A DNA stretch of 64,000 nt from Bryobacterales bacterium. Lineage in GTDB: Bacteria; Acidobacteriota; Terriglobia; Bryobacterales; UBA6623. The notes under the pieces are model-generated. The model ran no database searches, was not told the DNA's origin, and saw only the letters and a program-made list of their open reading frames with translations. The DNA is taken from positions 2,304,001 through 2,368,000 of the forward strand of contig OY729428.2 of assembly GCA_963422375.2 (NCBI GenBank), written 5' to 3'. How positions within the stretch are numbered: the stretch's first letter is position 1; every line of letters begins with the position of its first letter. The position numbers and the translations under genes are program-made. Positions 1 to 56,737 of the stretch are shown here, piece by piece.

Positions 1-1020
1 GAAGCAGGAATTCAAGCGGGTGCGGCAGGCGAAGAGGAGGCAAGGCAACCCGGAGAGGGTGCGGTCGTACCTGGAGGCGGCCCTGGAGATAGCGCGGCGG
101 GCGGAGGGTGCGCTGGCGGCCCTGGCGCGGGCCGGGGAAGACCAGGGAACCTTGCGAGCGGCAAGGAGTTACCTCGGGTGCGTGCAGCTCCTGGCGGACC
201 CGGTGGAGCGGCGCGTGCTGCGGGGGGAGAAGATCCCGCACGAGGGGAAAGTGTTCTCGATCTTCGAGGAACACACGCGCTGGTGCGTGAAAGGAAAAGC
301 GGGGGTTCGGGTGGAGCCGGGCGTTCCGGTATGGATCGTGGAAAGCGAGCACCGATTCGTGATGAATCACGAAGTGACGTGGAAGGGCAGCGACGCGGAC
401 GTGGCGGCGGGAATCGTCGAGGGGGCGCAGGGGCTGTACGCGGGGCTGTCGGGCTGCAGCTTCGACAAGGGCTTGCACAGCCCGGCGAACCGGACGCGCT
501 TGGCGGAACTGCTGTCGTGCCACGCGATGCCGCGGAAGGGGAGGCTGTCGAAGGCGGCGAAGGAGACGGAAGGCGCGCCCGAATTCGCGGCTGCGAGGCA
601 GGCGCGCCCGGCCGTGGAGTCCGCGATCAGCAATCTCGAGTGCCGCGGTCCGGACGGGGTGACGGACCGGGGAGCGGAGGGATTCGAGCGGATGATCGGG
701 CTGGCGGTCCTGGCGGCGAACGTGCATCGAGTGGGCCGGATCGGGCGCGACAGAGAGAGGGAGCGTCTCAAGACGGGACCCTTGCCGCTGGCTACATAGG
801 CAGTCGGCAGCGATCTGGATTGCTCTGAATAGAAACCTTGAAGAGACAAGGTTCAGGAAAATTGTACCACTAGAAGAGAACTAACTGTATCCTCATAATG
901 AGAATGGAATATGAGGCAATGAGTTCGGGTAATTGGCGCAGTCTGTTTCTTCCATGGCTATCGTTTGGTCGGGCTCCATCGGCTAGAATCCCCGAAATAT
1001 CAGGCTTTTGTCACAAGCAC
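1..1020 (+). mobile_element. IS5/ISNCY-like insertion sequence, 3' part (5' end outside window)
   Basis: Transposase ORF to 799, then an AT-rich tail ending in GGCTTTTGTCACAAGCAC (1003-1020). The same terminus bounds the MITE at 50465-50719. Confidence 0.8.
2..799 (+). CDS. DDE transposase (IS5/ISNCY-like), 5'-partial, probably degenerate
   Basis: KVFSIFEEHTRW..KGKAG, SFDKG and R.AVESAI.NLE motifs. Apparent L->P changes (VEPGVP, RGPD). Confidence 0.85.
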   Translation, partial: KQEFKRVRQAKRRQGNPERVRSYLEAALEIARRAEGALAALARAGEDQGTLRAARSYLGCVQLLADPVERRVLRGEKIPHEGKVFSIFEEHTRWCVKGKAGVRVEPGVPVWIVESEHRFVMNHEVTWKGSDADVAAGIVEGAQGLYAGLSGCSFDKGLHSPANRTRLAELLSCHAMPRKGRLSKAAKETEGAPEFAAARQARPAVESAISNLECRGPDGVTDRGAEGFERMIGLAVLAANVHRVGRIGRDRERERLKTGPLPLAT

Positions 1021-1149
1021 TATATAATTCCCCTTCGAAACCGCCCCTCAAGCGAGGGCACGGAAAGCAATATCGACCGTACGGGTTACCACGGCAGCTA
1101 GGACCGCTTCCAGTTCATCCGCGTCGGCAAGGGGGCCTCACCCGCGGCC

Positions 1150-1518
1150 CTAGCAGGCGGCCCCGGGCAGCGGCAGCGGGTTCCGCGCAAATACGTATTC
1201 CTTGACCGGCCTGCCGCCTTGGACATGCTCCACGAGGATTCTCTCCAGCACCTCGCCGCTAGCGGAGTGATACCACGTTCCGTCGGGATAGACAACAGCG
1301 ATCGGCCCCTTCTCGCAAACCCTCAGGCAGTTGACCTTGCTGCGGAAGACGCATCCGTCACCCCGTGCCAAGCCCAGTTCGTCGAGGCGGTCCTTGAGGG
1401 CAGTCCATGCCGGGATAGTGACATCCCTCGGCGCGCACTTGGGCTTGGTCTGGTCGGCGCACAGCAGGATGTGGCGCGTGTAGCTCCCTGTCGGGATGCG
1501 CAGCTCGCGCGCCATCAT
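1150..1518 (-). CDS. Thioredoxin-like [2Fe-2S] ferredoxin
   Basis: HILLC...KC, CLRVCEKGPIAVVYPDGTWY. Confidence 0.9.
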   Translation of the reverse strand: MMARELRIPTGSYTRHILLCADQTKPKCAPRDVTIPAWTALKDRLDELGLARGDGCVFRSKVNCLRVCEKGPIAVVYPDGTWYHSASGEVLERILVEHVQGGRPVKEYVFARNPLPLPGAAC

Positions 1519-2966
1519 CCCACTCCGACCAACCCGTGCATCGCCTTGGTCAGCCTCTCGACGTCGCTCGGCGCCCGACGGGCGAGATCATCGTTCTCGA
1601 AGGGATCCTCCTGAATGTCGTACAGCAGGGGCGCGGTTCCGGCATCCCCCGCCGGATAAGCCGGTAGGTTCGACCCGCCGACGGCCTTGCCGCCGGCATG
1701 CCCCCGGATCAGCTTGAGGCGGCCATCGGTCACGCACCGCCACGGGTTGAGCCCGCTCAGCAGGAACTCGCGATGCGAATCGCTCGAGCCGTCCAATACC
1801 GGCCGCAGCGAACGGCTGTCCATCCCCTGCGGAACGGCCGCGCCGGCGAAGTCGACGAAGGTCGCCGCGAGGTCCATCAGGCTGACCAGCGCGGGTGTGG
1901 ATGCGCCGCGGCGCACGCCTGGACCGGCGATGACCAACGGGACGCCCACCGAGGCTTGCTGGGGGAGCCGCTTCATCCACAGGCCGTGGTCCCCAAGCAT
2001 CTCGCCGTGATCGCTTGAGAATACGACCAAGGTATTGTCGATCTCGCCGCGCTCCTCGACGGCGGCGAGCAGCCGTCCCATCCACGTATCGATGTTCTCG
2101 ATCATGGCGGCGTAGTTGCGGCGGATCTCGACGTGCTTCTGCAGAGTGAACTCGGAATTGCGGTTGGGCTGCGGGAAGTCGACGTCCGCGTAGAGGCCGC
2201 TCATCCGCTTGGTCACGTCCACGGGCTCGTGCGGACCGGCGAAATTGACGACTAGGTGCCATGGCTTCCCGACCGGGGCCTCCTGCAGCAAACGCAAGCC
2301 TTGGGCCGCAATCCAGTTGTCGCAGTAGGACTCTTCGGGCAACGGCGTCGGGAAGGTCGCCGCGAAGGCTCCCTCGACCCGCCGCCTCTCGAAGTCGTCG
2401 CGGTGGATTCCGACCCTACCGCTCTCATGCAGGTGCGCCGTGAACGGATCGCAAGGCTTTTCCATGCCCCAGCGGATCGCGTCCCACTTGCCTGCGCTGT
2501 CGATTCCGGCCGAGAAGCCCCACTCCGGCAGCAGGTGCTGCCCCTCGACGCCCCACGTCGCTTCCGGCTTGTGGAGATCGAACTTCCCGCAGCCCATCAC
2601 GTGATAGCCGGCGTCGCGCAGCACGGAATAGTACGTCGTCTGGTCGAGGGGGTAGTTCCGCCCGTTGTCGAGGACACCGCAGCGGTCGTACTCCATGCCC
2701 CCCGCCAAGCACGCCCTTGACGGCGCGCACAGCGGGGACGGGCAATAGCAGTTCTCGAATTGCACGCCGCGCGCGGCCAGCGCATGAAGATGAGGTGTCC
2801 TCACGGGGATCGACGGATCGAAGCCCGCCCAGTCAGGCCTCAGCTGGTCGGGCATGACCAAGAGCACGTTGGGCGGTCCTTGATCGGACGGAGAATCCCC
2901 CCGACCGCACGCCGTGGCGGCTGCAACGGAACCCGCGAGGAATTCCCGCCGGGAGACGACTGGCAT
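1515..2966 (-). CDS. Sulfatase (Tat/lipoprotein signal, choline-sulfatase-like)
   Basis: SRREFL Tat motif, PNVLLVMPDQ, CAPSRA, GKFDL, SDHG. Confidence 0.93.
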   Translation of the reverse strand: MPVVSRREFLAGSVAAATACGRGDSPSDQGPPNVLLVMPDQLRPDWAGFDPSIPVRTPHLHALAARGVQFENCYCPSPLCAPSRACLAGGMEYDRCGVLDNGRNYPLDQTTYYSVLRDAGYHVMGCGKFDLHKPEATWGVEGQHLLPEWGFSAGIDSAGKWDAIRWGMEKPCDPFTAHLHESGRVGIHRDDFERRRVEGAFAATFPTPLPEESYCDNWIAAQGLRLLQEAPVGKPWHLVVNFAGPHEPVDVTKRMSGLYADVDFPQPNRNSEFTLQKHVEIRRNYAAMIENIDTWMGRLLAAVEERGEIDNTLVVFSSDHGEMLGDHGLWMKRLPQQASVGVPLVIAGPGVRRGASTPALVSLMDLAATFVDFAGAAVPQGMDSRSLRPVLDGSSDSHREFLLSGLNPWRCVTDGRLKLIRGHAGGKAVGGSNLPAYPAGDAGTAPLLYDIQEDPFENDDLARRAPSDVERLTKAMHGLVGVG

Positions 2967-3046
2967 CGCCTACGAGTGTACCCGCAGCGCCACGGGCACG
3001 GCGGGCGGGACCTGCCCGCGACGGGCGATCTCTAGAATGGACGGGC

Positions 3047-4471
3047 ATGCGGTTCGGACTGACCCTGATTCTCGCTTTCGCGACGGCGCTGCCGTTGTGC
3101 GCCGTCCCGGACAAGCCCAACGTCCTCTTCATCGCAGTGGACGACCTCAACGACTGGGTAGGCTGCCTCGGCGGGCACCCCCAGGCGAAGACGCCGAACA
3201 TCGATGCACTGGCCCGGTCCGGGGTGCTGTTCGCCAACGCGCATTGCGCGGCCCCCCTCTGCAACCCGTCGCGGACGGCCCTGCTGTTCGGCAAGCGGCC
3301 GACCACCACCGGCGTGGTCGGAAACAACGACGACTGGCGCACCTTCCCCTCGCTGAAGGGATCGGAATCGCTGCCCCAGCTCTTCCGCCGCAACGGCTAT
3401 TTCACGGCCGCCGCCGGAAAGATCTTCCACGCCAACCACGGCGGCTGGCGCGGGGCGCTCAACCGCGAGGAGGGGGCTCCATACGCCGGACGCAGCGGAT
3501 TCGGCCAGCCGGAGGCCTGGGACGAGCGGTTCCCCGCCAAGACGATTCAGTTGCCCTTGGCGCCCGTGCTGATCGACACTCACCGAAACGGCATCGACCA
3601 TCACTGGGACTGGGGACCGCTCGATTTCAAGGCGGACCTCACGGAGGACGGGCAGACGTCCCGCTGGGCGGTGCGCCAGCTCCGGGAAGAGCATGCTAAG
3701 CCGTTCTTCCTAGCGGTCGGGATCTACCGGCCCCACGACCCCCAGTACGCTCCCAGCGAGTACTTTGACGAGCATCCCCTCGGCAGCGTCGAGCTGCCGA
3801 GGGTCCTGCCGAAGGACCTCGACGACATCCCCGCGATCGCCAAGCGCTACACGCTCGCCGCCAACAACTACGAGACCATGATCCGCAAGCACAACGCCTT
3901 GCGGTCGGCGACCAGGGGCTATCTTGCGGCAGTGACGTTCGCTGACGCCATGGTCGGGCGCGTGCTTCGCGCTCTGGCGGCCAGCCCGTACGCCGACAAC
4001 ACGATCATCGTGCTGTTTTCCGACCACGGGTACCACATCGGCGAGAAGCAGAAATACCACAAGAGCACCCTCTGGGAGGAATCGACGCGCGTTCCCCTGA
4101 TCTTCTCCGTCCCCGGCGTGACCGCGACGGGAAGCACGTCACGACGCGCCGTGAGCCTGATCGACGTGTATCCGACATTGGCCCAGCTGGCAGGGCTGGA
4201 AGCGCCGGCGGACTTGGACGGCGAGAGCCTGGTCCCCCTGCTCAGGGACCCGGGCGCGTCGCGCGACAGTCCCGCGGTGACCACGAGGCAGGGCCGGCAC
4301 CATGCCGTGAGAACGGATCGCTGGAGGTACATCCGATACGGAGACGGCAGCGAAGAGCTGTACGACCACGACGCGGACGCGACCGAGTGGACCAACCTCG
4401 CAGGCGACCCGCGCCACGCAGAAACGAAGCGCAGACTCGGCGCGCTCCTAGACCGGACCTTGGTCCCGTAG
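3047..4471 (+). CDS. Sulfatase (iduronate-2-sulfatase-like)
   Basis: Signal peptide, PNVLFIAVDDLNDW, CNPSRT, GKIFH, SDHGYH. Confidence 0.95.
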   Translation: MRFGLTLILAFATALPLCAVPDKPNVLFIAVDDLNDWVGCLGGHPQAKTPNIDALARSGVLFANAHCAAPLCNPSRTALLFGKRPTTTGVVGNNDDWRTFPSLKGSESLPQLFRRNGYFTAAAGKIFHANHGGWRGALNREEGAPYAGRSGFGQPEAWDERFPAKTIQLPLAPVLIDTHRNGIDHHWDWGPLDFKADLTEDGQTSRWAVRQLREEHAKPFFLAVGIYRPHDPQYAPSEYFDEHPLGSVELPRVLPKDLDDIPAIAKRYTLAANNYETMIRKHNALRSATRGYLAAVTFADAMVGRVLRALAASPYADNTIIVLFSDHGYHIGEKQKYHKSTLWEESTRVPLIFSVPGVTATGSTSRRAVSLIDVYPTLAQLAGLEAPADLDGESLVPLLRDPGASRDSPAVTTRQGRHHAVRTDRWRYIRYGDGSEELYDHDADATEWTNLAGDPRHAETKRRLGALLDRTLVP

Positions 4472-9998: not shown

Positions 9999-10734
9999 GC
10001 GGCTCGCGACGGAAGTCTGCCCTTTGTCCGAAGCGGCTGGGAGTGCGCTCCGGGGAGCGGATTACGGCACAAGACGGGTCCGTTTCCGTCGTTGACCGTC
10101 AATCCGACCCACGGCCCGACCTGCTACCGGGCCGTCGAGATCTCGCGGAGGAACAACTGGCAGCGTGTCGGAACCCGACGCCTCCGTTGATTCGCGAGTC
10201 GCTACTCGCTCAGTTCTAGCCTTCGCGAAACCTACAGCCGGGGGCATCCTTGGCTGGAATGCGGAAGTCTTGGAGCAGGATAGTCGGCAGGTTACCGAAG
10301 TCCGCAGGCTGGATCTCGTGCTTCGGCCCCTAGCTCGGCCTGTGCGTGTAAGTCGGGATTCGGAGCGCGCCGCCCTATTGGACGCCGGACAGGAACTCCA
10401 ACGCGAGGACGACAATCAGCAGCACGCTGATCATCGTGCGCACAGGACACAGAAGACCCGCGACCTGCTCGGCAGCTTTGGTGCCAAGCTTGTCCGGGCT
10501 AGCCGGTCACTGAGTCAAGACAGCGAACTAGGCAATCGGCAGGTCCCTCGGCTTGCAGCGCCCGAGGTCGACGGCCCGGCGCGTCGCCGAGCATAAGACC
10601 TTGAACATGCCGCAACAGTCCGACTGGACGATGGCTGTTCTTTCCGATTGGGAATTATATATCTGAGTGCCGAGGGAATCAAGTCGGCAAATTATCAATC
10701 CATAATAAGATCTCATATTTCTTCCGACTTTCCG

Positions 10735-10764
10735 TTGACATTCTGTGGTGTTTCTTGGTATAAT
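10735..10764 (+). promoter_or_regulatory. sigma70 promoter of IS1595 transposase
   Basis: TTGACA-N18-TATAAT with extended TG. Copy 2 has TTGACA-N18-TAGAAT at 28727-28756. Confidence 0.8.
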
Positions 10765-10787
10765 AGTTTCAGTCTTAGATACCGTAA

Positions 10788-11720
10788 ATGAAGAAAAAGT
10801 CCACGGAAAGTGGTTCCGTAAAGGCATCACCTTGATCGAAGTGATTGCCATGTTCCCCGATGACGAATCCGCGGAAAAGTGGTTCGCCTCCGTGCGCTGG
10901 CCGGACGGTCCGGCATGCCCCCGCTGCCGCGGCTCCAGCGTGCAGTCCGGCGCGGCCCACCCTTCGATGCCGTACCGTTGCCGCGGTGCGGCAAGCGCTT
11001 TTCCGTGCGCACCGGCAGCGTGATGGCCGACACCAAGCTCGGCTACCGCACCTGGGCCGTGGCCCTGTTCCTGCTGACCACCGGCATCAAGGGCGTCTCG
11101 AGCATGAAGCTGCACCGCGATCCGGGCATCAGCCGGAAGTCGGCCTGGCACCTCGCGCACCGCATCCGCGCGTGCCGGGAGCGGGATCAGGGCCTGTTCG
11201 CCGGCCCGGTGGAGGTGGACGAGACCTGCGTCGGCGGCAAGGAGCGCAACAAGCACGAGAGCAAGAAGGCCCGCGCCGGGCGCGGGCCCGTCGGCAAGAC
11301 GCCCGTGGCGGGGGCGCGCGACCGCGCCACGAACGCAGTGGCCGCGCGGCCGCTGCCGGGCACCGCCAAGGGCGACCTGCAGGGCTTCGCGCGCGCCCGC
11401 GTCGCGCCGGGGGCGCAGGTCCGCTCCGACCAGGCGGCGGCCTACGCCGGCATGGAGGAGTTCCCGCACGAAGCCGTCAGGCACTCCGGCGGCGAGTACG
11501 TGCTCGGGGCAGCGCATACGAACGGCATCGAATCGTTTTGGTCCCTGTTCAAGCGCGGCCTCTACGGAACCTATCACCGGATGAGCGTCCGTCATCTCGG
11601 CCGCTACCTCACGGAGTTCGCGGGACGGCGCAACGACCGCGACTGCGACACGGCGGAACGGATGCGGCGCATGGCGCGGGGCCTGGTCGGCCGGACGCTG
11701 ACCTACCGGCAGCTGACCGG
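10788..11720 (+). pseudogene. IS1595 transposase, frameshifted
   Basis: Zn ribbon, VEVDET, HTNGIESFWSLFKRG. Single-base losses near 10800 and 10986 relative to copy 2. Confidence 0.9.
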
Positions 11721-12661
11721 CAAGGCCGCGGTCGCGGCCCGAGCGGCGCCCTCCGAGCCGAGCGCCGCAGCCCGCTGCCGACGCACTCTTCACGCTCGGT
11801 GCGCTTCACGCTCGGTGCGCGGGGCGCGCCGGATCTGGAATCCCCCGGCGCGACCCGCGTCCGGCCCGGACCGTCCATGCAGGCCCTCGAGCGCCGGGGA
11901 TCCGCTGTCTTCGGCCCTCGCAGGGCACGCAATCGGCTTGCAAAGGGTGCCCTCCACCGCCAACCGGATTCCACCGGGCATGCGAGGGCGCCTCTCTTAT
12001 CCGTGCCTCGTCCATTCCGCTGGCAGGCTCGATTCAGATACGATCCCACCTTGCCGTGCCTACCGCGGCCGCATTCGAATGACCCCAGCCAGACGCCGAC
12101 CTCCCTGCTCACAGCAGTTCTCGTCGGACATGGCGTTGTCAGCACTCAGATATATAATTCCCTTACACAGAGCGTAAGGGCTTCTCCGAGGGTTCGCACC
12201 GTGTAGCCTACATTTTGTGGCTCGCTAAGATACGTGCCTATATGGAGGATAGGATGCTGGAATCACCATTGACGCACTGGGTAGTTTCACAAGTAGCTTC
12301 CGGAACCGGCCGAATGCCGCCCGTCTCATCTGTCTTGTTAGGGCATTGAGGCGGGTCCACTCGGCTGGAGCCCTCATCCTATCCGTCGAATCGACACGGC
12401 CGGGCCGAGCGACCGGCAGCTTCGCATGCACCGCACCTCCCCGACCAGTTACTTGTCCGTCTTGTCCAAGCAGACGACCGGCCGCCGCTCGCAGTACGGC
12501 CGGGCATAGCATTCCCGACCTAGAGACGGTGCGACGCGAGATCCCCATTCGGGAAACGGACCGGAACACGCGCCAGTCGAAGATCGACTCGCACTTCACC
12601 ACGGACGACGATCGAACCAGGCTGAGACGCCCTTCTCCGTGGAGATAGGGGTTACAACGTA

Positions 12662-28344: not shown

Positions 28345-28641
28345 CCGAAGGCGACGCGAACGGCCCGGCCGGTCGCGACGCGTGTCGCTCGGGCGATACA
28401 GCGAGAGTTGCCGGCACCGCTCGACCAAGTGTCGACCGCAGCGCGACGGCGGCGACGGCGGGCGGCGCGATGGCCGTTGCCGACGCAATGAATTCAGAAG
28501 CGACCCGCCGCGACCGACCATCGAAGGGACTACGGAGTGGCTCGCTACGCGTACATCCTCTAAGTCTGGCCATTTCCGGATGTCCGGAGTGCCTGAAAAA
28601 GGTGTCGAAGGCAGTTTGGCACAGACAGGCGCTTAACTTTT

Positions 28642-30157
28642 GGGAATTATATATCTGAGTGCCGAGGCAACCGATTTTGCAAATTATCAGTCCATAAATT
28701 AATTTCATATTTCTTCCGGAAATCTGTTGACAGTCGGTGGAGTATTTTGATAGAATATTTCCAATATATGAGGTCGTCTATGAAGCAGAAGGGCCCCGGG
28801 AAGTGGTTTCGTAAAGGCATCACTCTGATTGAAGTGATCGCCATGTTCCGCGATGACGAATCCGCGGAAAAGTGGTTCGCCTCCATGCGCTGGCCCGACG
28901 GTCCGGTATGCCCCCACTGCCGCGGCTCCAGCGTGCAGTCCGGCACGGCCCACCCTTCGATGCCGTACCGTTGCCGCGGCTGCGGCAGGCGCTTTTCCGT
29001 GCGCGCCGGCAGCGTGACGGCCGACACCAAGCTCGGCTACCGCACCCGGGCCGTCGCCCTGTTCCTGCTGACCACCGGCATCAAGGGCGTCTCCAGCATG
29101 AAGCTGCACCGCGACCCGGGCATCAGCCGGAAGTCGGCCTGGCACCTGGCGCACCGCATCCGCGCGTGCCGGGAGCGCGCACAGGGCCTGTTCGCCGGCC
29201 CGGTGGAGGTGGACGAGACCTGCGTCGGCGGCAAGGAGCGCAACCAGCACGAGAGGAAGAAGGCCCGCGCCGGGCGCGGGCCCGTCGGCAAGACGCCCGT
29301 GGCGGGCGCGCGGGACCGCGCCGCGAACGCAGTGGCCGCGCGGCCGCTGCCGGGCACCGCCAAGGGCGACCTGCAGGGCTTCGCGCGCGGCCGGGTCGCG
29401 CCGGGCGCGCAGGTCCGCTCCGACGAGGCGGCGGCCTGCGCCGGCATGGAGCAGTTCCCGCACGAAGCCGTCAAGCACTCCCGCGGCGAGTACGTGCGCG
29501 GGGCGGCGCATACGAACGGCATCGAGTCGTTTTGGTCCCTGTTCAAGCGCGGCCTCTACGGAACCTATCACCGGATGAGCGTCCGTCATCCGGGTCGCTA
29601 CCTCACGCAGTTCGCGGGACGGCGCAACGACCGCGACTGCGACACGGCGGAACGGATGCGGCGCATGGCGCGGGGCCTGGTCGGCCGGAGGCTGACCTAC
29701 CGGCAGCTGACCGGCAAGGCCGCGGTCGCGGCCCGAGCGGCGCCCTCCGCGCCGAGCGCCGCAGCCCGCTGCCGACGCACTCTTCACGCTCGATGCGCTT
29801 CACGCTCGGTGCGAGGGGCGCGCCGGATCCGGAATGCCCCGGCGCGACCCGCGTCCGGCCCGGACCGTCCATGCAGGCCGTCGAGCGCCGGGGATCCGCT
29901 GTCTTCGGCCCTCGCAGGGCACGCAAGCGGCTTGCAAGGGGTGCCCTCCACCGCCAACCGGATTCCACCGGGGCATGCGAGGGGGCCTCTCTTATCCGTG
30001 CCTCGTCCATTCCGCTGGCAGGTTCGATTCAGATACGATCCCACCTTTCCGTGCCTACCGCGGCCGCATTCGAATGACCCCAGCCAGACGCCGACCTCCC
30101 TGCTCACAGCAGTTCTCGTCGGACATGGCGTTGTCGGCACTCAGATATATAATTCCC
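28642..30157 (+). mobile_element. IS1595-family element, type A, copy 2
   Basis: Same TIRs as copy 1, 8-bp TSD TAACTTTT (28634-28641 / 30158-30165). Confidence 0.97.
28780..29718 (+). CDS. IS1595 transposase core (frame open, no stop at usual end, several damaging substitutions)
   Basis: CPHC..CRGC Zn ribbon, VEVDETC, HTNGIESFW, EF.GR.N-like motif. Confidence 0.85.
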
Positions 30158-30191
30158 TAACTTTTCCAAGCGGGATTTGCGAGTGGGATCT

Positions 30192-30508
30192 ATGCCCCAT
30201 ATCTTGGACCCGCTGCCGGCGCCTTCCGCGAGACGCCCTCCGGCCTGCCCGACGGGCGCACGGGTCGCAACACGCGCTACGAGGCCAGCGACGCCGCCGG
30301 TTGCGCCCCGGCCTGCTTCTTCACCCGGTGCGAGTCGTTCCGCGAGTTCCGGCGGCGCATGGAGCGGGACAACTCCCGCTCCAACTGCCGGACCCTGTTC
30401 GGCGTGGGCCGCATCCCCTGCGACAACCGGATCCGCAACTTGCTCGACGGCCGCGACCCGGCCGCGTTCGACCCGCTGTTCCGGCTGTCCCTCGAAACTC
30501 AGCAGCGA
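30192..30508 (+). pseudogene. ISNCY-like transposase N-terminal fragment
   Basis: MPHILD, frameshift, then LPDGRTGRNTRY...FFT..SF...SNCRTLFGV.RIP.DN.IRNLLD. Confidence 0.75.
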
Positions 30509-30904
30509 GTCCAAGACATGGGGCATAGACCCTAGCTCGCGAATACCGCGACGAAATGTCAAGTGCCTGCCTGCGCCAGCCTTCTCAGACACTCTGGACA
30601 TCCCAAAAATGCCCAAGTCTAGAATCGCTGTGCTTGGATGTGAGCGGCCCGGAGGGTCGACGCTCGGCAACGCAGGCTTCCCAGGCGTGGCTCCGGCTAG
30701 CGGCGACGACCCAGCCGCGAATCTCGGGCCGGCTCGGAGTAGGTTCCGCCAAGCCCGCTTGCAGCAGGGCTGGGTTCACTCGGCCGGTGGGACGCGTCTA
30801 CCTCCTTTGGGGCCGCGGCCTCGCGAGCCCCAAGGATCGTCACTCATCCTGTAAGCTGAGGCGCGACGGAGCGGGCACCCCGCTCGGTCGATTCGGGAAC
30901 CATC

Positions 30905-32167: not shown

Positions 32168-32688
32168 GCCGCGATCCCGCCACGCCGTTCCTCCGAGGTT
32201 CGCCGGCCGCCCCCCTTCCCTAGGCGATTCCCCTGCCGGTCGGGAGGGCGTGGTGCCCGCATGCCGCAGGAACCGCAGCCAGCGCGCTGCCTGCTCCCTC
32301 GAGCCGAACCGTCCTCGCCGGCAGGGCCCGGCAGTGCCGGGAGACCGAGCCAGCCCTGCGTCCCGCCGGTCAGGCGGCCTAGCGGCGCGAGGCGCGCCTC
32401 GGACATGGCGAGCGATCTCGCCAAGGGGTCGGCGCCGTGTCACGAGCAGCGACCGGTCGCCGACCTGACGACTTCGACCCGCAGCCGAAGTTTCTCGTCG
32501 CCGATGTACACCTCGATACGGGCATCCAGTTCCCTGAGGTGCGCTTGGTTCTTGGCGATTTGCTCGTCATCTCCGGCCTTGAACTCAACCTTTTTGCCAG
32601 AGACATCTCGTAGGATTCTGGTGGTCCTACCGCACTCAGGGCGTAGGACAACTGCCCCTATTGCAAGCCTGAGATCCTCATCGGACTT

Positions 32689-33730
32689 CCTGATTACCAA
32701 CGAACGTCAGCCGAGGATATGCTATACTGGAGGAGGTCGGAAACCTCTGACAGGAAAGGGGATAGCTGATGAAACGCAATCGCGTGCAATTCCAGAAGGG
32801 ACTCAGCCCGGGCAAGTTCCTGCAGCGCTACGGCAGCGAGGGGCCATGCGAGCAGGCCGTCTTCAAGGCCCGCTGGCCGGACGGCTTCCGCTGCCCGGAG
32901 TGCGGCTCCCGGCGGCACTGCCGCATCCGCTCCCGCAAGCTCTGGCAGTGCCATGCCTGCCACCGCCAGACTTCCCTCGTCGCCGGCACGATCTTCGCCG
33001 CCACCAAGCTGCCGCTGACCGTCTGGTTCCTGGCGCTCCACCTGCTGACGCAGGGCAAGCACGGCGTTTCGTCGCTGGAACTGGCGCGGCAGCTGGGGGT
33101 CAGCCAGAACACGGCTTGGAAGATGAAGCACAAGCTCTTGCAAGTGATGAAGGAGCGCGACGAGCGCCTGCCGCTGGCCGGCATCGTGCAGGTGGACGAC
33201 GCCTACTGGGGCGGGGAGCGGAGCGGCGGCCAGCGCGGTCGCGGCGCGGCGGGCAAGACGCCGTTCGTGGCCGCCGTGCAGGTCACCGCCGCCGGCCAGC
33301 CGGCAAGGATGCGCATGATCAGCGTGGCCAGCGTGGCGGGCTTGCGCAAGAAGACGCTGGCAGCGTGGGCCGGGCGGCACTTGCAGCCCGGCACGGAGGT
33401 GCATTCCGACGGCCCGGCCTGCTTGCGGGGCGTGGCCGGCGCCGGCTGCGAGCACGTGCCGACCGTCACCGGAGGCGGGCAGCGGAACTGCGGGGATTCC
33501 CGCTTCGTCCGGGTCAACACCATGCTGGCGAACGTCAAGCGGTCCCTGGCGGGAACCTGCCATGCGCTCGACCGCAAGCACCTGCCGCGGTACCTCGCCG
33601 AGTTCCGCTACCGCTTCAACCGCCGCTACGACCTGGAGGCTCTGGTCCCCCGCCTGCTCCACGCCTCCGTGCGCACCCCGCCCATGCCTTACCGTCTCCT
33701 AACCTTGGCTGAGTCTTGTGGGCAATCAGG
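32689..33730 (+). mobile_element. IS1595-family element, type B, copy A
   Basis: Ends CCTGATTACC..TCAGCC / GGCTGA..GGCAATCAGG, TSD TCGGACTT. Confidence 0.97.
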
Positions 33731-33767
33731 TCGGACTTTGGGTTGGCTCCGTCAATGCGTCCGATGA
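32769..33767 (+). CDS. IS1595 transposase (stop TAA->CAA, reads out of the element)
   Basis: RWPDGFRCPEC, VQVDDAYWGGE, HSDG, KHLPRYLAEFRYRFNRR. Confidence 0.9.
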   Translation: MKRNRVQFQKGLSPGKFLQRYGSEGPCEQAVFKARWPDGFRCPECGSRRHCRIRSRKLWQCHACHRQTSLVAGTIFAATKLPLTVWFLALHLLTQGKHGVSSLELARQLGVSQNTAWKMKHKLLQVMKERDERLPLAGIVQVDDAYWGGERSGGQRGRGAAGKTPFVAAVQVTAAGQPARMRMISVASVAGLRKKTLAAWAGRHLQPGTEVHSDGPACLRGVAGAGCEHVPTVTGGGQRNCGDSRFVRVNTMLANVKRSLAGTCHALDRKHLPRYLAEFRYRFNRRYDLEALVPRLLHASVRTPPMPYRLLTLAESCGQSGRTLGWLRQCVR

Positions 33768-34034
33768 CGGCAATAGTTAGCACGGAGTATTGCAGGCTGT
33801 CACCGGCATCCAATTCCAAGATCTCGACCCGCTTGCAAAGGTCTTCTTCTGCGGATAAGAATCTCTGATGATAGTGTCTAATCCCTTGATTAGCGCTCTA
33901 TTTGCGTTGACCAATTCGCGGTTCACTCGCTTGACATTGTCGGCACTCGTGGCACGCAATCGTTTCAGATCCCTCAACCCTCTCCTGAATTGGAGGCGGA
34001 AGTTGAGGAACTCTCTCACGTGCCCATTCCTCTT

Positions 34035-35053
34035 CCTGATTACCAACGAACGTCAGCCGAGGATATGCTATACTGAAGGAGGTCGGAAATCTCTGACAGG
34101 AAAGGGGCTAGCAGATGAAACGCAATCGCGTGCAATTCCAGCAGGGACTCAGTCTGGGCAAGTTCCTGCAGCGCTACGGCAGCGAGGGGCCATGCGAGCA
34201 GGCCGTCTTCAAGGCCCGCTGGCCGGACGGCTTCCGCTGCCCGGAGTGCGGCTCCCGCCGGCACTGCCGCATCCGCTCCCGCAAGCTCTGGCAGTGCCAT
34301 GCCTGCCACCGCCAGAGCTCCCTCGTGGCCGGCACGATCTTCGCCGCCACCAAGCTGCCGCTGACCGTCTGGTTCCTGGCGCTCCACCTGCTGACGCAGG
34401 GCAAGCACGGCGTTTCGTCGCTGGAACTGGCGCGGCAGCCGGGCGTCAGCCGGAACACGGCTTGGAAGATGAAGCACAAGCTCTTGCAAGTGATGAAGGA
34501 GCGCGACGAGCGCCTGCCGCTGGGCGGCATCGTGCAGGTGGACGACGCCTACTGGGGCGGGGAGCGGAGCGGCGGCCAGCGCGGGCGCGGCGCCGTTCGT
34601 GGCCGCCGTGCAGGTCACCGCCGCCGGCCAGCCGGCAAGGATGCGCCTGAGCAGCGTGGCGGGCTTCCGCAAGAAGACGCTGGCAGCGTGGGCCGGGCGG
34701 CACTTGCAGCCCGGCACGAAGGTGCATTCCGACGGCCCGGCCTGCTTGCGGGGCGTGGCCGACGCCGGCTGCGAGCACGTGCCGACCGTCACCGGAGGCG
34801 GGAAGCGGAGCTGCGAGGATTCCCGCTTCTTCCGGGTCAACACGATGCTGGCGAACGTCAAGCAGTCCCTGGCGGGAACCTGCCATGCGCTCGACGGCAA
34901 GCACCTGCCGCGGTACCTCGCAGAGTTCCGCTACCGCTTCAACCGCCGCTACGATCTAGAGGCGCTGGTCCCCCGCCTGCTCCACGCCTCCGTGCGCACC
35001 CCGCCCATGCCTTACCGCCTCCTAACCCTGGCTGAGTCTTGTGGGTAATCAGG
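34035..35053 (+). mobile_element. IS1595-family element, type B, copy B (transposase frameshifted near 34590)
   Basis: Same ends, TSD TTCCTCTT. Split ORFs 34115.. and 34599..35048. Confidence 0.97.
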
Positions 35054-35743
35054 TTCCTCTTTGAATTCGGGTCGCCTCCGTCGATCCCTCGCCCTCGCGC
35101 AAAGGTCACCGGGACCTCGTCGCCGTGGCCGTCGTCACGCAGATCTCCCCGCTCGAACTGGGCGAAGAGCTCGACGGTGTCGTCCTCCGCGACGAGCGCG
35201 TGCATCCCAGCCGAGACGAGGCACCGATGGAGGGCGCGCCACTCGCGACCCGAGCACCCCATGACCACCCGCAGCAAGCCCGAGGCGCGCAGCCAGTCGC
35301 CCAGGGCGCGCCGTCCCCGGGCGGGTCCAAGCGGCGCTTGTCAATCCGGATGCCCGCCTACGGAGGGCTGCCTGGCACCCCAGTCAGGGGCAGCCCGCCT
35401 TGCCGATTCGTCATCGCACGGTCATTCCCCGGCACGGCAGCTCCCGGTCTGTCATGGCGCCGGGTGCAAGCACTGAAGCGGCATTCCGGGGTCCCCCGTG
35501 CGCACCTTGCATGGGACCCGAATTCCTGCTGCCAGCTGCGGGGCCCGGGCCTCCCTGCTAGCCACTGCCACCTGCTCGGCAGGGCGCGAGTCATCGGCGC
35601 GGGACGAGCCTACCCTGCGCCGTGTCGAGCACGCGGGCGGACGCAAGCCTCAGGACCGTGCAGCGAAGGCGCGCGCGGTCGCCGACGCGAATCACATCCG
35701 GCTCATCGGAACGCGCGGCCGCCGACCCAGTCCCGCCGACGCG

Positions 35744-50337: not shown

Positions 50338-50464
50338 ATCTATGACGTTGTCCCCGAAACACCGACGGACACTGCTGTTGCTATTTGAGCGACATCCACT
50401 GTCTAGACCAGAGCATGGGCGCTACTCACGCGCATCAGTCTGCCCCCTGCCCTGCCGATATCTA

Positions 50465-50719
50465 GTGCTTGTGACAAAACCCCTGAATTCTGGCCCGATC
50501 AGCATTTCATACTACATCCTGAAGTCGGATGGATCTCCAAACACAACATATAGGGCCCAAGGTCGGAAATTGCTCAGACGCCAATCGCGAAGATTTCGAC
50601 GCTCTATTCAGAATCGCCAGGGTTTCGGATTAGTCGTAGCATTCCAGCGAAATCTTCGCCTTGAGAGATTGGATCTAACGCCTTTGTTGTCAAGGGGATA
50701 CGAGTTTTGTCACGGGCAC
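50465..50719. mobile_element. 255-bp MITE related to the IS at 1-1020
   Basis: TIRs GTGCTTGTGACAAAAC / GTTTTGTCACGGGCAC, flanks TATCTA / GATCTA, AT-rich, no transposase. Confidence 0.8.
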
Positions 50720-50722
50720 GAT

Positions 50723-51352
50723 CTAGTCAATTAGGTTCAGGCCGCCGTCTTCAAGTGTCACGGGTCGCTGCCAGTACCCGAACTGGGGAGTCCAGTCGTC
50801 CCCTCCGTGGCCCGCTAGAGCGAGGAAACTCCAAGCCGAGCAGAACATGTCGCCGGGACCGAACACCACGGCATTCTTCCGCAGGATGGTACCGTCGCTC
50901 TTCTCGTAGAGCACGGCCCCGGGCATATTGTCCTGGCCGGACATGGTGGTCTGCTCGCGGATGTAGCTGCCGGCCTGATGCGAAGCAAGCCGGAACCGCC
51001 AGCCGCGAGCGTTGGCGAACCGTCGCTGGACTTCGGGCGGATCCTTCGAAAGCAGCACGACCGCCATGGCCGACTCCAAGTGATGCAGGAAGCCGTTGAT
51101 GCCGTCGGCCCACAACGTACAGTACCTGCACGCCTGCCCCATGTTGTGTATCGCTAGTAGCTTGTCCTTTCCGGCGAAGAGGTCGGCGAGATGCGTTTCG
51201 CCTTCCAGCGTTTGCAATGGGTAGTTCGGCACCGGGGTGCCCACTGCGGTCCGTCTCAGCTTGTTGAGCTGCTCCGTCAGTTCCGCGACTCGGCGCTCGA
51301 GGTCCGTGATGGTGGACTCGGAATCGGTAGGGCTTGTAGTAGGCTCTGGCAC
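50723..51352 (-). CDS. DUF899 family thioredoxin-like protein
   Basis: V.NY......G...L.DLF.GKD.L..IHNMGQACRYCTLWADG. Confidence 0.85.
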   Translation of the reverse strand: MPEPTTSPTDSESTITDLERRVAELTEQLNKLRRTAVGTPVPNYPLQTLEGETHLADLFAGKDKLLAIHNMGQACRYCTLWADGINGFLHHLESAMAVVLLSKDPPEVQRRFANARGWRFRLASHQAGSYIREQTTMSGQDNMPGAVLYEKSDGTILRKNAVVFGPGDMFCSAWSFLALAGHGGDDWTPQFGYWQRPVTLEDGGLNLID

Positions 51353-51976: not shown

Positions 51977-52495
51977 CTAGCGTGAACGCACGGTGCCGAA
52001 GCGAGAGGCGAACTCGTCCCACGCGACACGGTACTCCTCCTCTCGGTCGCAGCGATCAAACGGGGCGCGGTACTCGATCACGCGCTCGACCGGGCTGCCG
52101 GACTGCGTGTCGTCAAGAATCTTGCGCGTGACGACTCCCTCCTTGAGGTCTCGGATGTCCTCCCATCCGAGCGATAGACCCGATTCGGACCGATCCGGCG
52201 CGACCAGTCCGTAGCACGTGTCCTGTTTGTTCGGCTTGCGCGGCAGGCCCACCCCGGGTAGGCCCTTGGACGAAGTGAACACGATTCGTCCGTTCGCGTC
52301 GTACCAAGTGTCTACCTCGTAGCCGCGCATCACCGGGAACAGAACTCGGTAGACGACAAGCAGCTCGTCGAGTCCGAGTCCGAGAGCCATCGAGGCCAGC
52401 ACGTCGATCTCGACCAACGCCTGCCGCCGGGCGTAGTCGGACCGGAGAGCGCATGCGCGATGCCAAGAAGGTCCGAGGGACGAAAAGTAGCCATT
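51977..52495 (-). pseudogene. C-terminal fragment of a large type II RM / N6 DNA methyltransferase
   Basis: [61 protein letters not shown]-terminus missing. Confidence 0.75.
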
Positions 52496-52875
52496 CGAAA
52501 GAGTCCTGTCGCATCCGGCTCCTTTTCCGACTCTCGGTGGGAAATGCACTCCTCGCACGCTCCACGGTGTCGATGGCGGATATGGCACGGTAATCGATTC
52601 AGCCAAGCCACTCGCATTTGCACTATCGAGTGATGGCACTTCGCTGACGTTACAGGCCTGCTTCCCATCTGGGTCCGCGGAAAGGCAGCATCTCGCGTAA
52701 ACTGCATGAAGGAATCCTAGAAGTATGGCCCGCCGAGTATTCTTTAGCTTCGCCCATTCAACTCCGAAGTGCGACACGCGCCGAGCCACAAGATGGCAGG
52801 GAGGGGAGAGGGGGGGCAGCGAGCGGTGGTGTGGCGGCAGTAGGCTGGTAGGTGCTGGAAGGAGCAGGGAGGCGG

Positions 52876-53919
52876 ATGCGGAAGAGCTACACGCACGTGA
52901 CGCAGGAGGAGCGCTGCCGGAGCGAGACGCTGCGGGCGGCGGGCTGGGCGGGCTGGGGAGCGGACAGGATCGCCGGGCAGCCGGGCCGCAAGCGGGCCAC
53001 GATCTACCGGGAAGTGGGCCGCAACGGCCGACCGGCGGAGGGCGAGCGCGCGGCGAGCTACAGCTTGGGGAGCGCGCGGGAGCGCGCGGAGCGGCGGCGG
53101 CGCGCGGCGTCGTGCCGGCCGCGCCAGCTGACGTCGGCGCTGCGGGCGCGGAGCGAGGACTGCCTGCGGCAGGACTGGAGCCCGGAGCAGGAGCCCGGAG
53201 CAGGAGCCCGGAGCAGGAGCCCGGAGCAGGTCGCGGCGCGGCTGCAGCGGGAAGGGGCGCTGGAGATCAGCCCTGAACGGATCTACCAGCTGGTGCGCGC
53301 GGACCGGCGGCAGGGGGGCCGGCTGTACCGGCACCCGAGGCAGGGCGGCCGCAAGCGCGTCCGGCGGGTCGGCCGGACGGCGGGCCGCGGCCTGATCCCG
53401 GGGCGCGCGGACATCGCGGAGCGCCCGGCGGAGGCGCGAGCGCAGGCGCGCGTCGGCGACCGGGAGGCCGACACCGTGATCGGCGGGCAGCGCCGCGGGG
53501 CGCCGGTGACGCTGGTGGACCGGTTCTCTAAGTACCTGCTAGTGCAGCCGGTTAGCCGGCGCACGGCGCGGCTGGTCGGGGCGGCGATGACGGCCATGCT
53601 CGCAGGCAGCGGGGCCGTGACGCGCACGATCACGGCCGACAACGGCAAGGAGTTCGCGGGGCGCCGGGAGGTGGCGCAGCGGCTGGGGGCGGGCTTCTAC
53701 TGCGCGCGGCTCTGCCACTCCTGGGAGCGCGGGCTGAACGAGCATGCCAACGGGCTGCCGCGGCAGTACTGCCCGCAGGGGACGGACCTGCGGCGGGTGG
53801 ACCCGGCCCGGGTGCGGCAGGCGCGGGACCGCCTGAACCGGCGTCCGCGGAAGGTGCCGGGCGGGCGCACGCCGGAGGAAGTCTTCCCGGCGGAGCGCGA
53901 GCGGGTGCCGCGGGGCTGA
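52876..53919 (+). CDS. IS30 transposase, degenerate
   Basis: Y.H.T.EER, TIYREV.RN, WSPEQ, GD(R)[34 protein letters not shown]. Confidence 0.92.
53177..53230 (+). repeat. 13-bp tandem repeat (GGAGCCCGGAGCA) x4
   Basis: Directly visible, duplicates the WSPEQ-coding sequence. Confidence 0.95.
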
Positions 53920-54726
53920 GGCAGGGCTGGCAGCCCGCCGCCCCGGACAGGGGCGCGGGGGAGCTGCGCCCGGACAGGCGCGGATTCGACCCTCCGGGCC
54001 TTGCTGCGGTCGCTCCGCTCCCTGCGCAAGGCCCGGAAGGTCCCCGTTCCGGAAACGGGGCACGCATGCCCGCCTGCCCGGGACGCGGCCCCCCGCTGCG
54101 GCCCGGCAGCGGCTTGTCCGGCGCCGCTGGATCTGCTACTGTGGTCCTAGTATCCCAGCCCACCGCCCCTTACCCGCGTGTCGCACTTCGGAGTTGAATG
54201 GGCGCTTTGATTACGTACGGGACGTTTCTCGTGCTATGATCGTGCGGAATAGCTGGGTGACACAGGGTCGAGAGGATGTGGGTTTTGTCGATGCAGCTGA
54301 GATCCAGAACGTGGAGAAGTCTGGCAGCCGTGCGATCCGCCATTGGATCAATGAGCAAATGATGGGAACATCCGTCACTGTAGTCTTGGTGGGATCGCAT
54401 ACATGTCGCAGCCGTTGGGTCCGGTATGAAATCGAGTTGAGCGAAGAGCGATGTAATGGCTTGCTCGGAATCGACATTAGCAAAATCAAGGATTTTGCCG
54501 GGAATACGAGCTCCTGTTGTCGCATGATGCCAATCGGCCATCCGTTCTACCGATGGAATCGTGATCACGGGTACCAGAGTCTCGGAAAGTAGATTGAATG
54601 GGCAGCACGGTCAGTCGGGCGCTAGGGACTTCAGGTCAAGTGCCAGATCATCTTGATTCGGAATCGCGAAGCATTGCAGTGTTCGCGACACCTGACAGAG
54701 GGGAGAGACGCGACATATATGACGAC

Positions 54727-56737
54727 ATGATCATTGATCAATCCGAGTTTGAAGAGGAAGAATTGGCCGTGCATCCACGGTACTCAATTACGACTTATGG
54801 AGTGGATTTATCCGTAGATAGTGTGGCACGGCGCCTAGCGAGAGGAGACATTGTCCTGCCGATTTTCCAGCGGGGCTTCGTATGGAGCCTCACACAGGCA
54901 TCAAGATTTGTCGAATCCTTGTTGCTAGGACTTCCCGTACCGGGAGTCTTCTTGTGCAATCAACCTGCAACTCAAAGACTGATGATTGTCGACGGAAATC
55001 AGCGGCTTCAGACGATATCAAGTTTCTATATCGGAAAGAATCCGTAATCAGCCGTTGGCATTGGCTAGCGTGGAATTGTCACTACAAGGATTGACATATC
55101 AGACCTTGGATGAGGATGATTGACGTGCCCTAGATCGTTCGTTTCTGCACACAACCGTGTTTCATCAGGAACAAACAACAAGTGATAAGAGTAGAATTTT
55201 TCAAGTGTTTGAGCGCCTAAATATGACTGAAATTCCGCTTTCCACGCAAGAAATTCGAGCATGTCTATACCGAGGGTCTGTCAACGATCTTCTAAAATAT
55301 TCCTGATTACCAACGAACGTCAGCCGAGGATATGCTATACTGAAGGAGGTCGGAAATCCCTGATAGGAAAGGGGATAGCAGCTGAAACGCAATCGCGTGC
55401 AATGCCAGAAGGGACTCAGCCCGGGCAAGTTCCTGCAGCGCTACGGCAGCGAGGGGCCATGCGAGCAGGCCGTCTTCAAGGCCCGCTGGCCGGACGGCTT
55501 CCGCTGCCCGGAGTGCGGCTCCCGGCGGCACTGCCGCATCCGCTCCCGCAAGCTCCGGCAGTGCCATGCCTGCCACCGCCAGACCTCCCTGGTCGCCGGC
55601 ACGATCTTCGCCGCCACCAAGCTGCCGCTGACCGTCCGGTTCCTGGCTATGCACCTGCTGACGCAGGGCCAGCACGGCGTTTCGTCGCTGGAACTGGCGC
55701 GGCAGCCGGGCGTGAGCCGGAACACGGCTTGGAAGATGAAGCACAAGCTCTTGCAAGTGATGAAGGAGCGCGACGAGCGCCTGCCGCCGGGCGGCATCGT
55801 GCAGGTGGACGACGCCTGCTGGGGCCTGCTGGGGCGGGGAGCGGAGCGGCGGCAAGCGCGGGCGCGGCGGGCAAGACGCCGTTCGTCGCCGCCGTGCAGG
55901 TCACCGCCGACGGCAAGCCGGCAAGGATGCGCATGAGCAGCGTGGCCAGCGTGGCGGGCTTCCGCAAGAAGACGCTGGCAGCGTGGGCCGGGCGGCACTT
56001 GCAGCCCGGCACGGAGGTGCATTCCGACGGCCCGGCCTGCTTGCAGGGCGTGGCCGGCGCCGGCTGCGAGCACGTGCCGACCGTCACCGCAGGCGGGCAG
56101 CGGAGCTGCGGGGATTCCCGCTTCGTCCGGGTCAACGTCCGGGTCAACACGATGCTGGCGCACGTCAAGCGGTCCCTGGCGGGAACCTGCCATGCGCTCG
56201 ACGGCAAGCACCTGCCGCGCTACCTCGCCGAGTTCCGCTACCGCTGCAACCGCCGCTACGACCTGCAGGCGCTGGTCCCCCGCCTGCTCCACGCCTCCGT
56301 GCGCACCCCGCCCAGGCCTTACCGCCTCCTAACCTTGGCTGAGTCTTGTGGGTAATCAGGTAAAAGAATACTCTAGACCTCTTCGACACTTCTTGAACTG
56401 GTATATGGAATCGAACGCCAACGCAAGCGGAGAATGAGTAGAAGAGCATCGCATGAAGTTTTATCATGCTGTAGAAATCGCTTCTCGTTACTTGAGGAGG
56501 GATGGGTTTTGTCAAGGTTCAAGGTTGAATTCTGCGATCACTGATGCAATGTTAGTGGGCCTGATGTGTCGTATCGATCATGGGAGCATCAAGCATCCAA
56601 GTCGACTGCGAGGTGTTGCCATTGATCTTCGAGACTCCTCAGAATTTGCTAGCGTAGTCCATCGTAACACAACAAATATCAACTCTGTTCAGAGTAGGAT
56701 TCAGCAAGCTTGCGAAGCCTTCTGGAGGGTTGCATGA
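54727..56737 (+). pseudogene. DUF262 (GmrS/ParB-like) protein, frameshifted and split by IS1595
   Basis: PIFQRGFVWS, FVESLLLGLPVP, IVDGNQRL, downstream VFERLN and LSTQEIR, C-terminal piece 56453-56737. Confidence 0.85.
55302..56360 (+). mobile_element. IS1595-family element, type B, copy C (pseudogenised, no TSD)
   Basis: Same ends as copies A and B. Start ATG->CTG, frameshift near 55830, flanks AAAATATT vs TAAAAGAA. Confidence 0.95.

What the first reader, a model, noticed from the sequence alone, without database searches (positions are those of the whole stretch)
1..56360. Repeat-specific CTGG/CCAG->CCGG hypermutation across unrelated IS families (reverse RIP-like signature)
Seen directly between sister copies. 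Type B: cagCTGGgg..agCCAGaac (A) vs cagCCGGgc..agCCGGaac (B, C). ctCTGGcag, gtCTGGttc and cgCTGG (A, B) vs CCGG (C). agtCTGG (B) vs agcCCGG (A, C). Type A: acCTGGgcc vs acCCGGgcc, and gatCTGGaat vs gatCCGGaat. Against family consensus as I recall it, the same change explains L->P, W->R and Q->R at conserved sites in IS30 (GDREAD, GAPVTL, RKVPG), IS1595 (RDPG.SRK, SDGPAC), the first IS (VEPG, RGPD) and the ISNCY fragment (FTR, FRRR, DNRIR). A second class, CTAC->CTGC (Y->C: DETC, GTCH, DACW, AACA), recurs. The single-copy TIR and DUF262 pseudogenes nearby keep their CTGG/CCAG sites. Inference: a process acting on multicopy DNA drives AT->GC and cripples transposases. It could be biased Vsr-like T:G repair in inter-copy heteroduplex or a dedicated silencing mutator. 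The causal genes are not in this window.
Basis: partly seen in the sequence, partly recalled or inferred. Interest (0 to 1): 0.85.

Follow-up and report, generated by a model that had tools for sequence, protein, structure and literature searches.

The report
Biased copy-to-copy repair cripples transposons
The hundreds of dead jumping-gene copies in this bacterium keep overwriting short stretches of one another, and the overwrite favours G:C over A:T, most of all at TGG sites, so the same damaging changes have spread through whole families; this looks like a side effect of ordinary DNA repair, not a dedicated mutator.

Summary
The eight cited CTGG/CCGG differences are real, and outgroup proteins give the direction T>C. 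It is no base-calling artefact: 914 intact single-copy genes show no excess (34/5996). (1) The motif is wider: [T>C]GG after any base, TAGG, TTGG, plus a T>G class; CTGG/CCGG is about 5% of copy differences. (2) It is not strictly repeat-specific: single-copy pseudogenes show 15/416 (3.6%) against 28% in two ~90-copy IS1595 families, and the excess rises with copy number. (3) It is spread, not fresh hypermutation: private mutations are ordinary; copies are mosaics that share 9-14 bp duplications while keeping their own target-site duplications; linkage fits conversion tracts near 100 bp; A:T>G:C alleles sit at high frequency, G:C>A:T at low (p 4e-8). Best reading (0.62): non-crossover gene conversion among copies with context-biased heteroduplex repair. 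Candidates are an orphan, genus-wide Vsr (outside the window) and MutY; neither link is shown. Conversion among dead IS copies and bacterial GC-biased conversion are each known; nine searches found no report of the combination. The scan noted a similar one-way bias in another genome (e1-6827949).

The parts
1..1022 (+). Decayed ISNCY-family copy, cut by the window start (15 copies covering 80% of this stretch)
   Evidence: (NF033593, 202.6 bits, below the whole-protein cut-off of 325)
10648..12164 (+). IS1595 'type A' copy 1 (89 near-full copies in the genome; 8-bp target-site duplications in the family)
   Evidence: (PF12762)
28640..30161 (+). IS1595 'type A' copy 2; derived alleles at 29047 and 29438, CCGG allele at 29830
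30166..30640 (+). Internally deleted copy of a further IS family (49 copies of 250 bp or more); CCGG allele in 27 of 29 copies at one site, 5 of 48 at another; family name not confirmed
   Evidence: no family hit
32686..33731 (+). IS1595 'type B' copy A (94 near-full copies; keeps its own 7-bp target-site duplication); keeps ancestral T/A at 32943, 33024, 33094, 33106, 33175
34032..35054 (+). IS1595 'type B' copy B; mosaic of ancestral (34155, 34289, 34370, 34521) and derived (34440, 34452) alleles
50459..50725 (.). Miniature element (63 copies)
52751..54204 (+). Decayed IS30 copy (20 copies) with L>P, W>R and F>C changes and short tandem duplications
   Evidence: (NF033563)
54598..55047 (+).
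55299..56361 (+). IS1595 'type B' copy C; derived at all six cited sites; carries two of the shared tandem duplications

Best explanation
After bursts of transposition the copies stopped moving but kept recombining. RecA-type strand exchange between dispersed copies forms heteroduplex over tracts of roughly 100 bp that resolve mostly without crossover, so each family behaves like a recombining population of 15-100 sequences (mosaicism shown; tract length inferred). Ordinary mutation seeds variants, about 3-fold faster at CTGG than at other T (inferred from pseudogenes and model). Mismatches in the heteroduplex are repaired with a bias to G:C that depends on context: strongest for T:G followed by GG (CTGGG, TCTGG, also TAGG, TTGG), weaker for T>G after T (A:G mispair). 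Because the effect scales with copy number times bias, seeded G:C alleles sweep in large families and G:C>A:T alleles stay rare (frequency skew shown). W>R, L>P, Q>R, Y>C, K>Q and F>C changes thus reach every copy and no intact transposase is left. The enzymes are inferred, not shown: the orphan Vsr (G000:C2:2578398-2578835) for T:G>C:G, MutY for A:G>C:G. Inactivation is most simply a by-product of repair.
For: Mosaicism: type B r2 0.159/0.069/0.036/0.020 at 1-5/6-15/16-40/41-100 bp; one neutral simulation per tract length gives 0.125/0.091/0.023/0.019 for 100 bp, too little for 10-30 bp, too much for 300 bp. Duplications of 9-14 bp are shared by 13-17 of 94 copies whose carriers are hardly closer than non-carriers beyond 30 bp (3.95 vs 4.23%, 4.29 vs 4.53%, 4.32 vs 4.44%). 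49 of 84 type B and 43 of 68 type A copies with both ends keep a matching target-site duplication. Bias: at outgroup-conserved codons W>S 82 rare/63 common, S>W 94/13, fixed class left out, p 4e-8; CTGG 1/12 against C>T 68/8. A site-wise model prefers bias over neutral spread for CTGG at all three conversion depths tried (dLL 10-79). Dose: CYGG excess 1.11, 1.27, 1.61, 2.95 in decayed repeats of 2-3, 4-7, 8-15, 16-40 copies at 3-5% divergence. Amplification: 556/1984 copy-sites in IS against 15/416 in single-copy pseudogenes and 11/92 in pseudogenes with paralogues; CC|TAC>TGC 144/335 against 0/75; C>T changes are alike, a few tenths of a per cent. Target-site duplications differ at 10 of 686 positions (about 0.7% per copy) while interiors lie 3.7-4.2% from the inferred ancestor. 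Genes: vsr with E. coli catalytic and Zn residues, in 29 of 30 other genus genomes; recA, mutS, mutL intact, mutY-like. A Neisseria Vsr cuts a CTGG/CCGG T:G substrate (PMC6116569, passages).
Against: No enzyme specificity was measured; vsr presence is only circumstantial. Context heterogeneity (CTGGG 7 of 7 sites polymorphic, most GCTGGH sites untouched) can mimic the bimodality the model reads as bias. The pseudogene control is small (55 loci, 15 events), chosen by lesions and may include intact genes. IS counts are not independent (21-27 sites). C>G changes, which no G:C bias explains, are also common (18 of 55 polymorphic sites at 5% or more). The few >40-copy segments gave ratios 0 (0/9) and 1.33, against the trend; the >31-copy bin gave 2.98. 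Type A has subfamily structure and longer linkage. About 40% of copies lack a matching target-site duplication, so crossovers or deletions also occur. Low-copy repeats in G003 show no CYGG excess (0.76, 1.04).
Confidence: 0.62

Rival explanations
1. Genome-wide context-biased mutation (or allelic biased repair) plus unbiased conversion: CTGG is simply a hot spot everywhere, and the IS variants are older than the pseudogenes or date from a past mutator phase.
For: Single-copy pseudogenes show the same direction and hottest 5-mer (CTGGG 8/126, CTGGH 7/290; intact 7/1424). T>C sweeps fall in contexts where T is scarcest at 4-fold sites genome-wide (p 6e-10). The 16S of 21 of 21 correctly oriented genus sequences reads CCCGG where CCTGG is usual (usual state recalled).
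Against: Neutral conversion keeps the mean frequency, yet CTGG is about 8-fold higher in IS at a similar C>T clock; copy-number dose response at similar divergence; no singleton among 8 unswept CTGG sites; neutral fit needs CTGG mutation 6-26 times C>T and still fits worse.
Confidence: 0.22
2. A homology-sensing de novo mutator (reverse RIP), or error-prone repair synthesis during ectopic recombination, writes new T>C and T>G changes into repeats.
For: Copy-number dependence; per-copy load mildly over-dispersed (SD 0.088-0.095 against 0.066-0.067); a dinB-like gene lies 1.5 kb from vsr (named by eye from the translation).
Against: Private mutations are ordinary with no CTG excess; identical 7-mers differ from 0.00 to 0.85; no excess in 2-3-copy repeats; shared indels and C/G variants need conversion anyway.
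Confidence: 0.13
3. Base-calling or polishing artefact at methylated motifs.
For: The raw short-read runs laid gave no coverage (1 and 0 reads), and the library of the matching run X2 is not on record.
Against: Intact single-copy genes: CTGG class 34/5996 against other T>C 50/10534, p about 0.4. Run X2 matches listed single-copy pieces (5991 and 5773 bases, and four shorter) with 0 differences and holds both alleles at 55556 in about the assembly's ratio (65% T against 59 of 92); the 2015 run X1 shares IS junctions. X2 may be the assembly's own sample.
Confidence: 0.03

Closest known systems
GC-biased gene conversion in bacteria (Lassalle et al. 2015, PMC4450053; passages seen)
   Same: Recombination-linked transmission bias to G:C; the paper notes that strong bias fixes deleterious mutations and names mismatch repair as a candidate source.
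   Different: There it is inferred between alleles of core genes; here it acts between dispersed paralogues inside one genome, scales with copy number and depends on sequence context. The term VSP does not occur in that paper's text.
Gene conversion among non-functional IS copies in Wolbachia wBm (Cordaux 2009; known only from a passage in PMC3196728 and reference lists)
   Same: Dead IS copies exchange sequence by conversion and share inactivating lesions.
   Different: There the copies stay highly similar; here they are 2-6% apart, fully mosaic, and the exchange is directional to G:C. I did not see the paper itself, so cannot say whether it tested a bias.
Very-short-patch repair: E. coli Vsr/Dcm and Neisseria V.NgoAXIII/XIV (PMC2715241, PMC6116569; passages)
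   Same: T:G is repaired to C:G in a context-dependent way; excess Vsr promotes CTAGG>CCAGG; V.NgoAXIV cuts CTGG/CCGG. The Vsr here aligns with the E. coli enzyme (E 1e-29).
   Different: No methyltransferase lies beside this vsr. CCWGG is the most depleted 5-mer (0.67) and CTAG is near expectation (0.91), unlike the E. coli pattern (recalled). Specificity untested.
Fungal repeat-induced point mutation (RIP; recalled)
   Same: Repeats accumulate one-directional, context-biased changes that inactivate transposons.
   Different: Opposite direction; RIP makes new C>T mutations in any duplicate pair, whereas here new mutations are ordinary, pairs are unaffected and existing alleles are spread.

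Membership tests
RIP-like homology-triggered mutator | Excess confined to or scaling with repeated DNA | tested here: met
   Scales with copy number; about 8-fold over single-copy pseudogenes, which are not free of it
RIP-like homology-triggered mutator | New, copy-private mutations carry the signature | tested here: not met
   Singletons C>T 434, T>C 169, T>G 109, C>A 155, C>G 144, T>A 42; CTG context 1.6 per 1000, below the T>C mean (swept columns are excluded by design)
RIP-like homology-triggered mutator | Acts on two-copy duplications | tested here: not met
   Ratio 1.11 (0.71-1.54) in 81 decayed 2-3-copy segments
RIP-like homology-triggered mutator | Dedicated gene required | not testable with these tools
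   No genetics available
Ectopic gene conversion among IS copies | Interior mosaic while flanks stay in place | tested here: met
   Linkage decay, shared duplications in unrelated copies, matching target-site duplications in 49/84 and 43/68
Ectopic gene conversion among IS copies | Recombination machinery present | tested here: met
   recA, open frame 358 aa
GC-biased gene conversion | W>S alleles at higher frequency than S>W alleles | tested here: met
   82/63 against 94/13, p 4e-8
GC-biased gene conversion | GC-neutral changes unaffected | tested here: inconclusive
   T>A mostly rare (11 rare, 2 common) but C>G often common (37 rare, 18 common)
GC-biased gene conversion | Direct transmission bias in recombination products | not testable with these tools
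   Needs strain series or crosses; raw reads gave no coverage
VSP repair by Vsr | Vsr with catalytic, Zn and intercalating residues | tested here: met
   TIGR00632 154 bits; PD, HGCFWH.H.C, W..K...N...D and WEC motifs align with 1cw0 (residue roles recalled)
VSP repair by Vsr | Cognate C5 methyltransferase with matching site | tested here: inconclusive
   18 PF00145 matches, none beside vsr, several broken; specificities unknown; no excess C>T at CCGG
VSP repair by Vsr | Nicking preference for T:G before GG/AGG/TGG | not testable with these tools
   Needs purified enzyme
EndoMS/NucS repair | nucS gene | tested here: not met
   No PF01939 match in G000 (96% complete); 12 of 30 other genus genomes have a weak match

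The most novel reading that the evidence does not exclude
The orphan vsr, kept in a housekeeping neighbourhood across the genus without a partner methyltransferase, works with recombination as a selected, copy-number-sensing genome defence: the more an IS family expands, the faster its W, L, Q and Y codons are converted to R, P, R and C, which gives bacteria a self-limiting, reverse-direction analogue of RIP built from ordinary repair parts.
Probability: 0.13. Interest if true: 0.92.

Novelty: new variant of a known kind. Interest (0 to 1): 0.66.

Why it matters
Whether GC-biased conversion exists in bacteria, and which enzymes cause it, is an open question argued mostly from between-strain statistics. 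Here one genome holds several natural 'populations' of 15-100 neutral, recombining sequences with known ancestral state, a copy-number series and single-copy controls. The bias can be read per mismatch and per context, which yields a testable enzyme prediction (Vsr for T:G before GG, MutY for A:G). It also offers a route by which IS families die out without selection, and warns that majority consensus of old IS copies can be a dead sequence.

Tried and rejected
Genome-wide 4-mer counts show no CTGG depletion (1.06) or CCGG excess (1.04): uninformative because of coding constraint. The CCCGG at the 16S 5' end first looked like a sequencing error; it is shared by 21 of 21 correctly oriented genus sequences (G039 was mis-oriented and left out). 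I first read the fast linkage decay as tracts under 15 bp; simulation showed about 100 bp suffices, so tract length is no evidence for Vsr. Relatives are too distant (68-75% DNA identity at mutS) for direct neutral comparison, hence the codon-based test. Raw reads X7 and X8 gave 1 and 0 reads; X1 (share 0.17) gave 5 single-copy differences in about 2 kb, too few for a spectrum. An equilibrium frequency-spectrum fit gave negative values even for C>G, so only differences between classes were used. Swapped target-site duplications as a sign of crossovers were at chance level (8 against 7.6; 1 against 0.4). Neighbouring copies are not more alike than distant ones in type B. The IS30 target-site test failed because my search needed 6 bp or more. 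mutT status is unclear: best match 76 bits, under the cut-off. Nine paper searches listed no report of context-biased conversion among IS copies; the library lacks most subscription papers and I opened no supplements.
Full report
Setting. The window is G000:C2:2304001-2368000 of a 6.0-Mb, 67% GC genome in three contigs. The 16S looks Acidobacteriota-like (recalled signature; no call names the taxon). About 14% of the genome matches two or more other places. The window holds copies of six families: two IS1595 types (89 and 94 near-full copies), IS30 (20), an ISNCY (15), a miniature element (63) and a further deleted element (49). Copies are 2-6% apart on average. Every copy has at least 4 (type A, 27 sites) or 7 (type B, 46 sites) changes at conserved residues, though 25 of 89 and 39 of 94 keep one open frame.

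Observation. All eight cited differences are present. Homologues from other genus genomes (11 loci for type A, 6 for type B) have W, L, Q, Y at the coding sites, so the direction is T>C. Of 27 ancestral CTGG sites, 12 stand at 0.02 or less and 15 at 0.10-0.87 (mean 0.29); 58 ancestral CCGG sites average 0.004 for the reverse. The motif is wider than stated. Over five families, T/C polymorphism occurs at 21 of 63 C_GG, 5 of 14 A_GG, 4 of 15 T_GG, 10 of 44 G_GG, 7 of 15 _AGG and 7 of 21 _TGG sites, against 12 of 202 before CC (unpolarised). A second class, T>G after T (K>Q, F>C), is strong. In repeats above 31 copies CYGG makes 173 of 3194 pairwise differences.

Artefact. I compared 1560 genes called in 2.4 Mb of the closest relative tested (G003) with G000; 1090 non-redundant loci passed the filters. 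In 914 intact single-copy genes W>R at C|TGG and L>P at CTG|G total 34/5996 (0.57%), like other T>C (0.47%; p about 0.4). A motif-linked error would show here. Run X2 matches the listed single-copy pieces without a difference and holds both alleles at 55556; it may be the assembly's own sample. Raw short reads gave no coverage.

Repeat specificity. In 55 single-copy pseudogenes the class is 15/416 (3.6%) against 10/724 (1.4%) for other T>C (p 0.02); in the 15 with two or more lesions 3/109; in 10 with paralogues 11/92. The same codon test in the two IS1595 families gives 556/1984 (28%), CC|TAC>TGC 144/335 (pseudogenes 0/75), K>Q 267/2849, while C>T classes stay low (P>L 8/2382, stops 6/2671). 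So the context is mildly hot everywhere and about 8-fold amplified in large families. The excess grows with copy number: 0.47, 0.87, 1.77, 2.52, 2.98 over five bins (confounded by selection on low-copy genes) and 1.11, 1.27, 1.61, 2.95 in repeats with frameshifts (its small >40 bins did not follow). Target-site duplications, which are single-copy and as old as each insertion, differ at 10 of 686 positions, while interiors are 3.7-4.2% from the inferred ancestor. T>C sweeps also fall where T is scarcest at 4-fold sites genome-wide, so the same bias has probably shaped the whole genome weakly.

Spread, not hypermutation. Private mutations are ordinary. Polymorphic sites are highly homoplastic on the copy trees, including C/G sites. 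In type B linkage is near background beyond 40 bp. Tandem duplications of 9-14 bp are shared by up to 17 copies that are otherwise unrelated; by eye the largest have little flanking repeat, which makes one origin likelier than repeated slippage. Most copies keep their own target-site duplication and 803 of 913 adjacent orthologue pairs remain within 15 kb, so exchange is mostly without crossover. A neutral simulation, one run per setting, matches the decay at about 100-bp tracts. At 376 outgroup-conserved codons, W>S alleles are common and S>W alleles rare (82/63 against 94/13; 16 fixed cases left out since they may be lineage differences; p 4e-8). A site-wise model ranks bias CTGG above other GG and T>G after T, above C>G and other T>C, above C>T and C>A, with CTGG mutation about 3 times other T>C; a neutral fit is worse for CTGG at each depth, but is adequate for several other classes at the deepest setting. 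The model assumes equal sites within a class, which one search shows to be only roughly true.

Candidate enzymes. One vsr lies 210 kb beyond the window between housekeeping genes, with no methyltransferase beside it. It keeps the motifs of the E. coli enzyme. It is found in 29 of 30 other genus genomes, 8 of 17 in family f2 and 0 of 7 in f3; 8 of the 24 loci compared share a neighbouring gene. mutS, mutL and recA are intact, a mutY-like gene scores just under the cut-off (282 against 286.5), two uracil-glycosylase-family genes are present, nucS was not found. T>C needs T:G repaired to C:G, Vsr's reaction (PMC2715241 and PMC6116569, passages); T>G needs A removed opposite G, MutY's reaction (recalled). 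These assignments are inference.

Beyond this genome. Decayed copies from G012, G034 and G007 show the same L>P, Y>C and W>R changes by eye (not counted). G003's low-copy repeats show no CYGG excess.

Verdict. Real and striking, but best explained by two known processes acting together at unusual strength: ectopic conversion among dead IS copies and G:C-biased, context-dependent repair. New variant of a known kind; interest 0.66. A selected defence role remains possible (0.13).

Noticed in passing
G000:C1:1573013-1574505 (L001) and L012-L033: The 16S 5' primer site reads GATCCCGG in 21 of 21 correctly oriented genus sequences, a mismatch to the usual 27F primer (recalled) that may hide the genus in amplicon surveys.
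   Followed up: partly
whole genome: Very strong context effect at synonymous sites: T3 is 16-54% before CC but 1-9% before AA, GA or GG; A3 is high after GG. Runs of CCC/GGG seem avoided.
   Followed up: partly
whole genome: CCWGG is the most depleted 5-mer (0.67) and CCTAG/CTAGG among the most enriched (1.27); CCWGG is not among the 12 lowest in the G003 sample. Possible past Dcm-like methylation or restriction avoidance.
   Followed up: partly
IS1595 type B family, e.g. window 55299-56361: Distinct insertions outnumber deletions (57 against 30 alleles), many being 9-14-bp tandem duplications; possible insertion bias in conversion.
   Followed up: partly
IS1595 type B ORF: TTC>TTG (F>L) is frequent (150/1085 copy-sites; 0/784 in type A), a GC-neutral change that the G:C bias does not explain.
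   Followed up: no
Untested.
   Followed up: no
window 28640-28720 and 32686: Elements nest in each other's ends; for example a type B copy elsewhere has a target-site duplication drawn from type A's 5' end, and type B was inserted in a methyltransferase-like pseudogene region near 32261-33712 only by eye.
   Followed up: no
G000:C1:1834233, C2:1339756, C3:16926: Three equally scoring copies of one C5 methyltransferase in prophage-like surroundings; several other methyltransferase genes are broken or IS-interrupted.
   Followed up: partly
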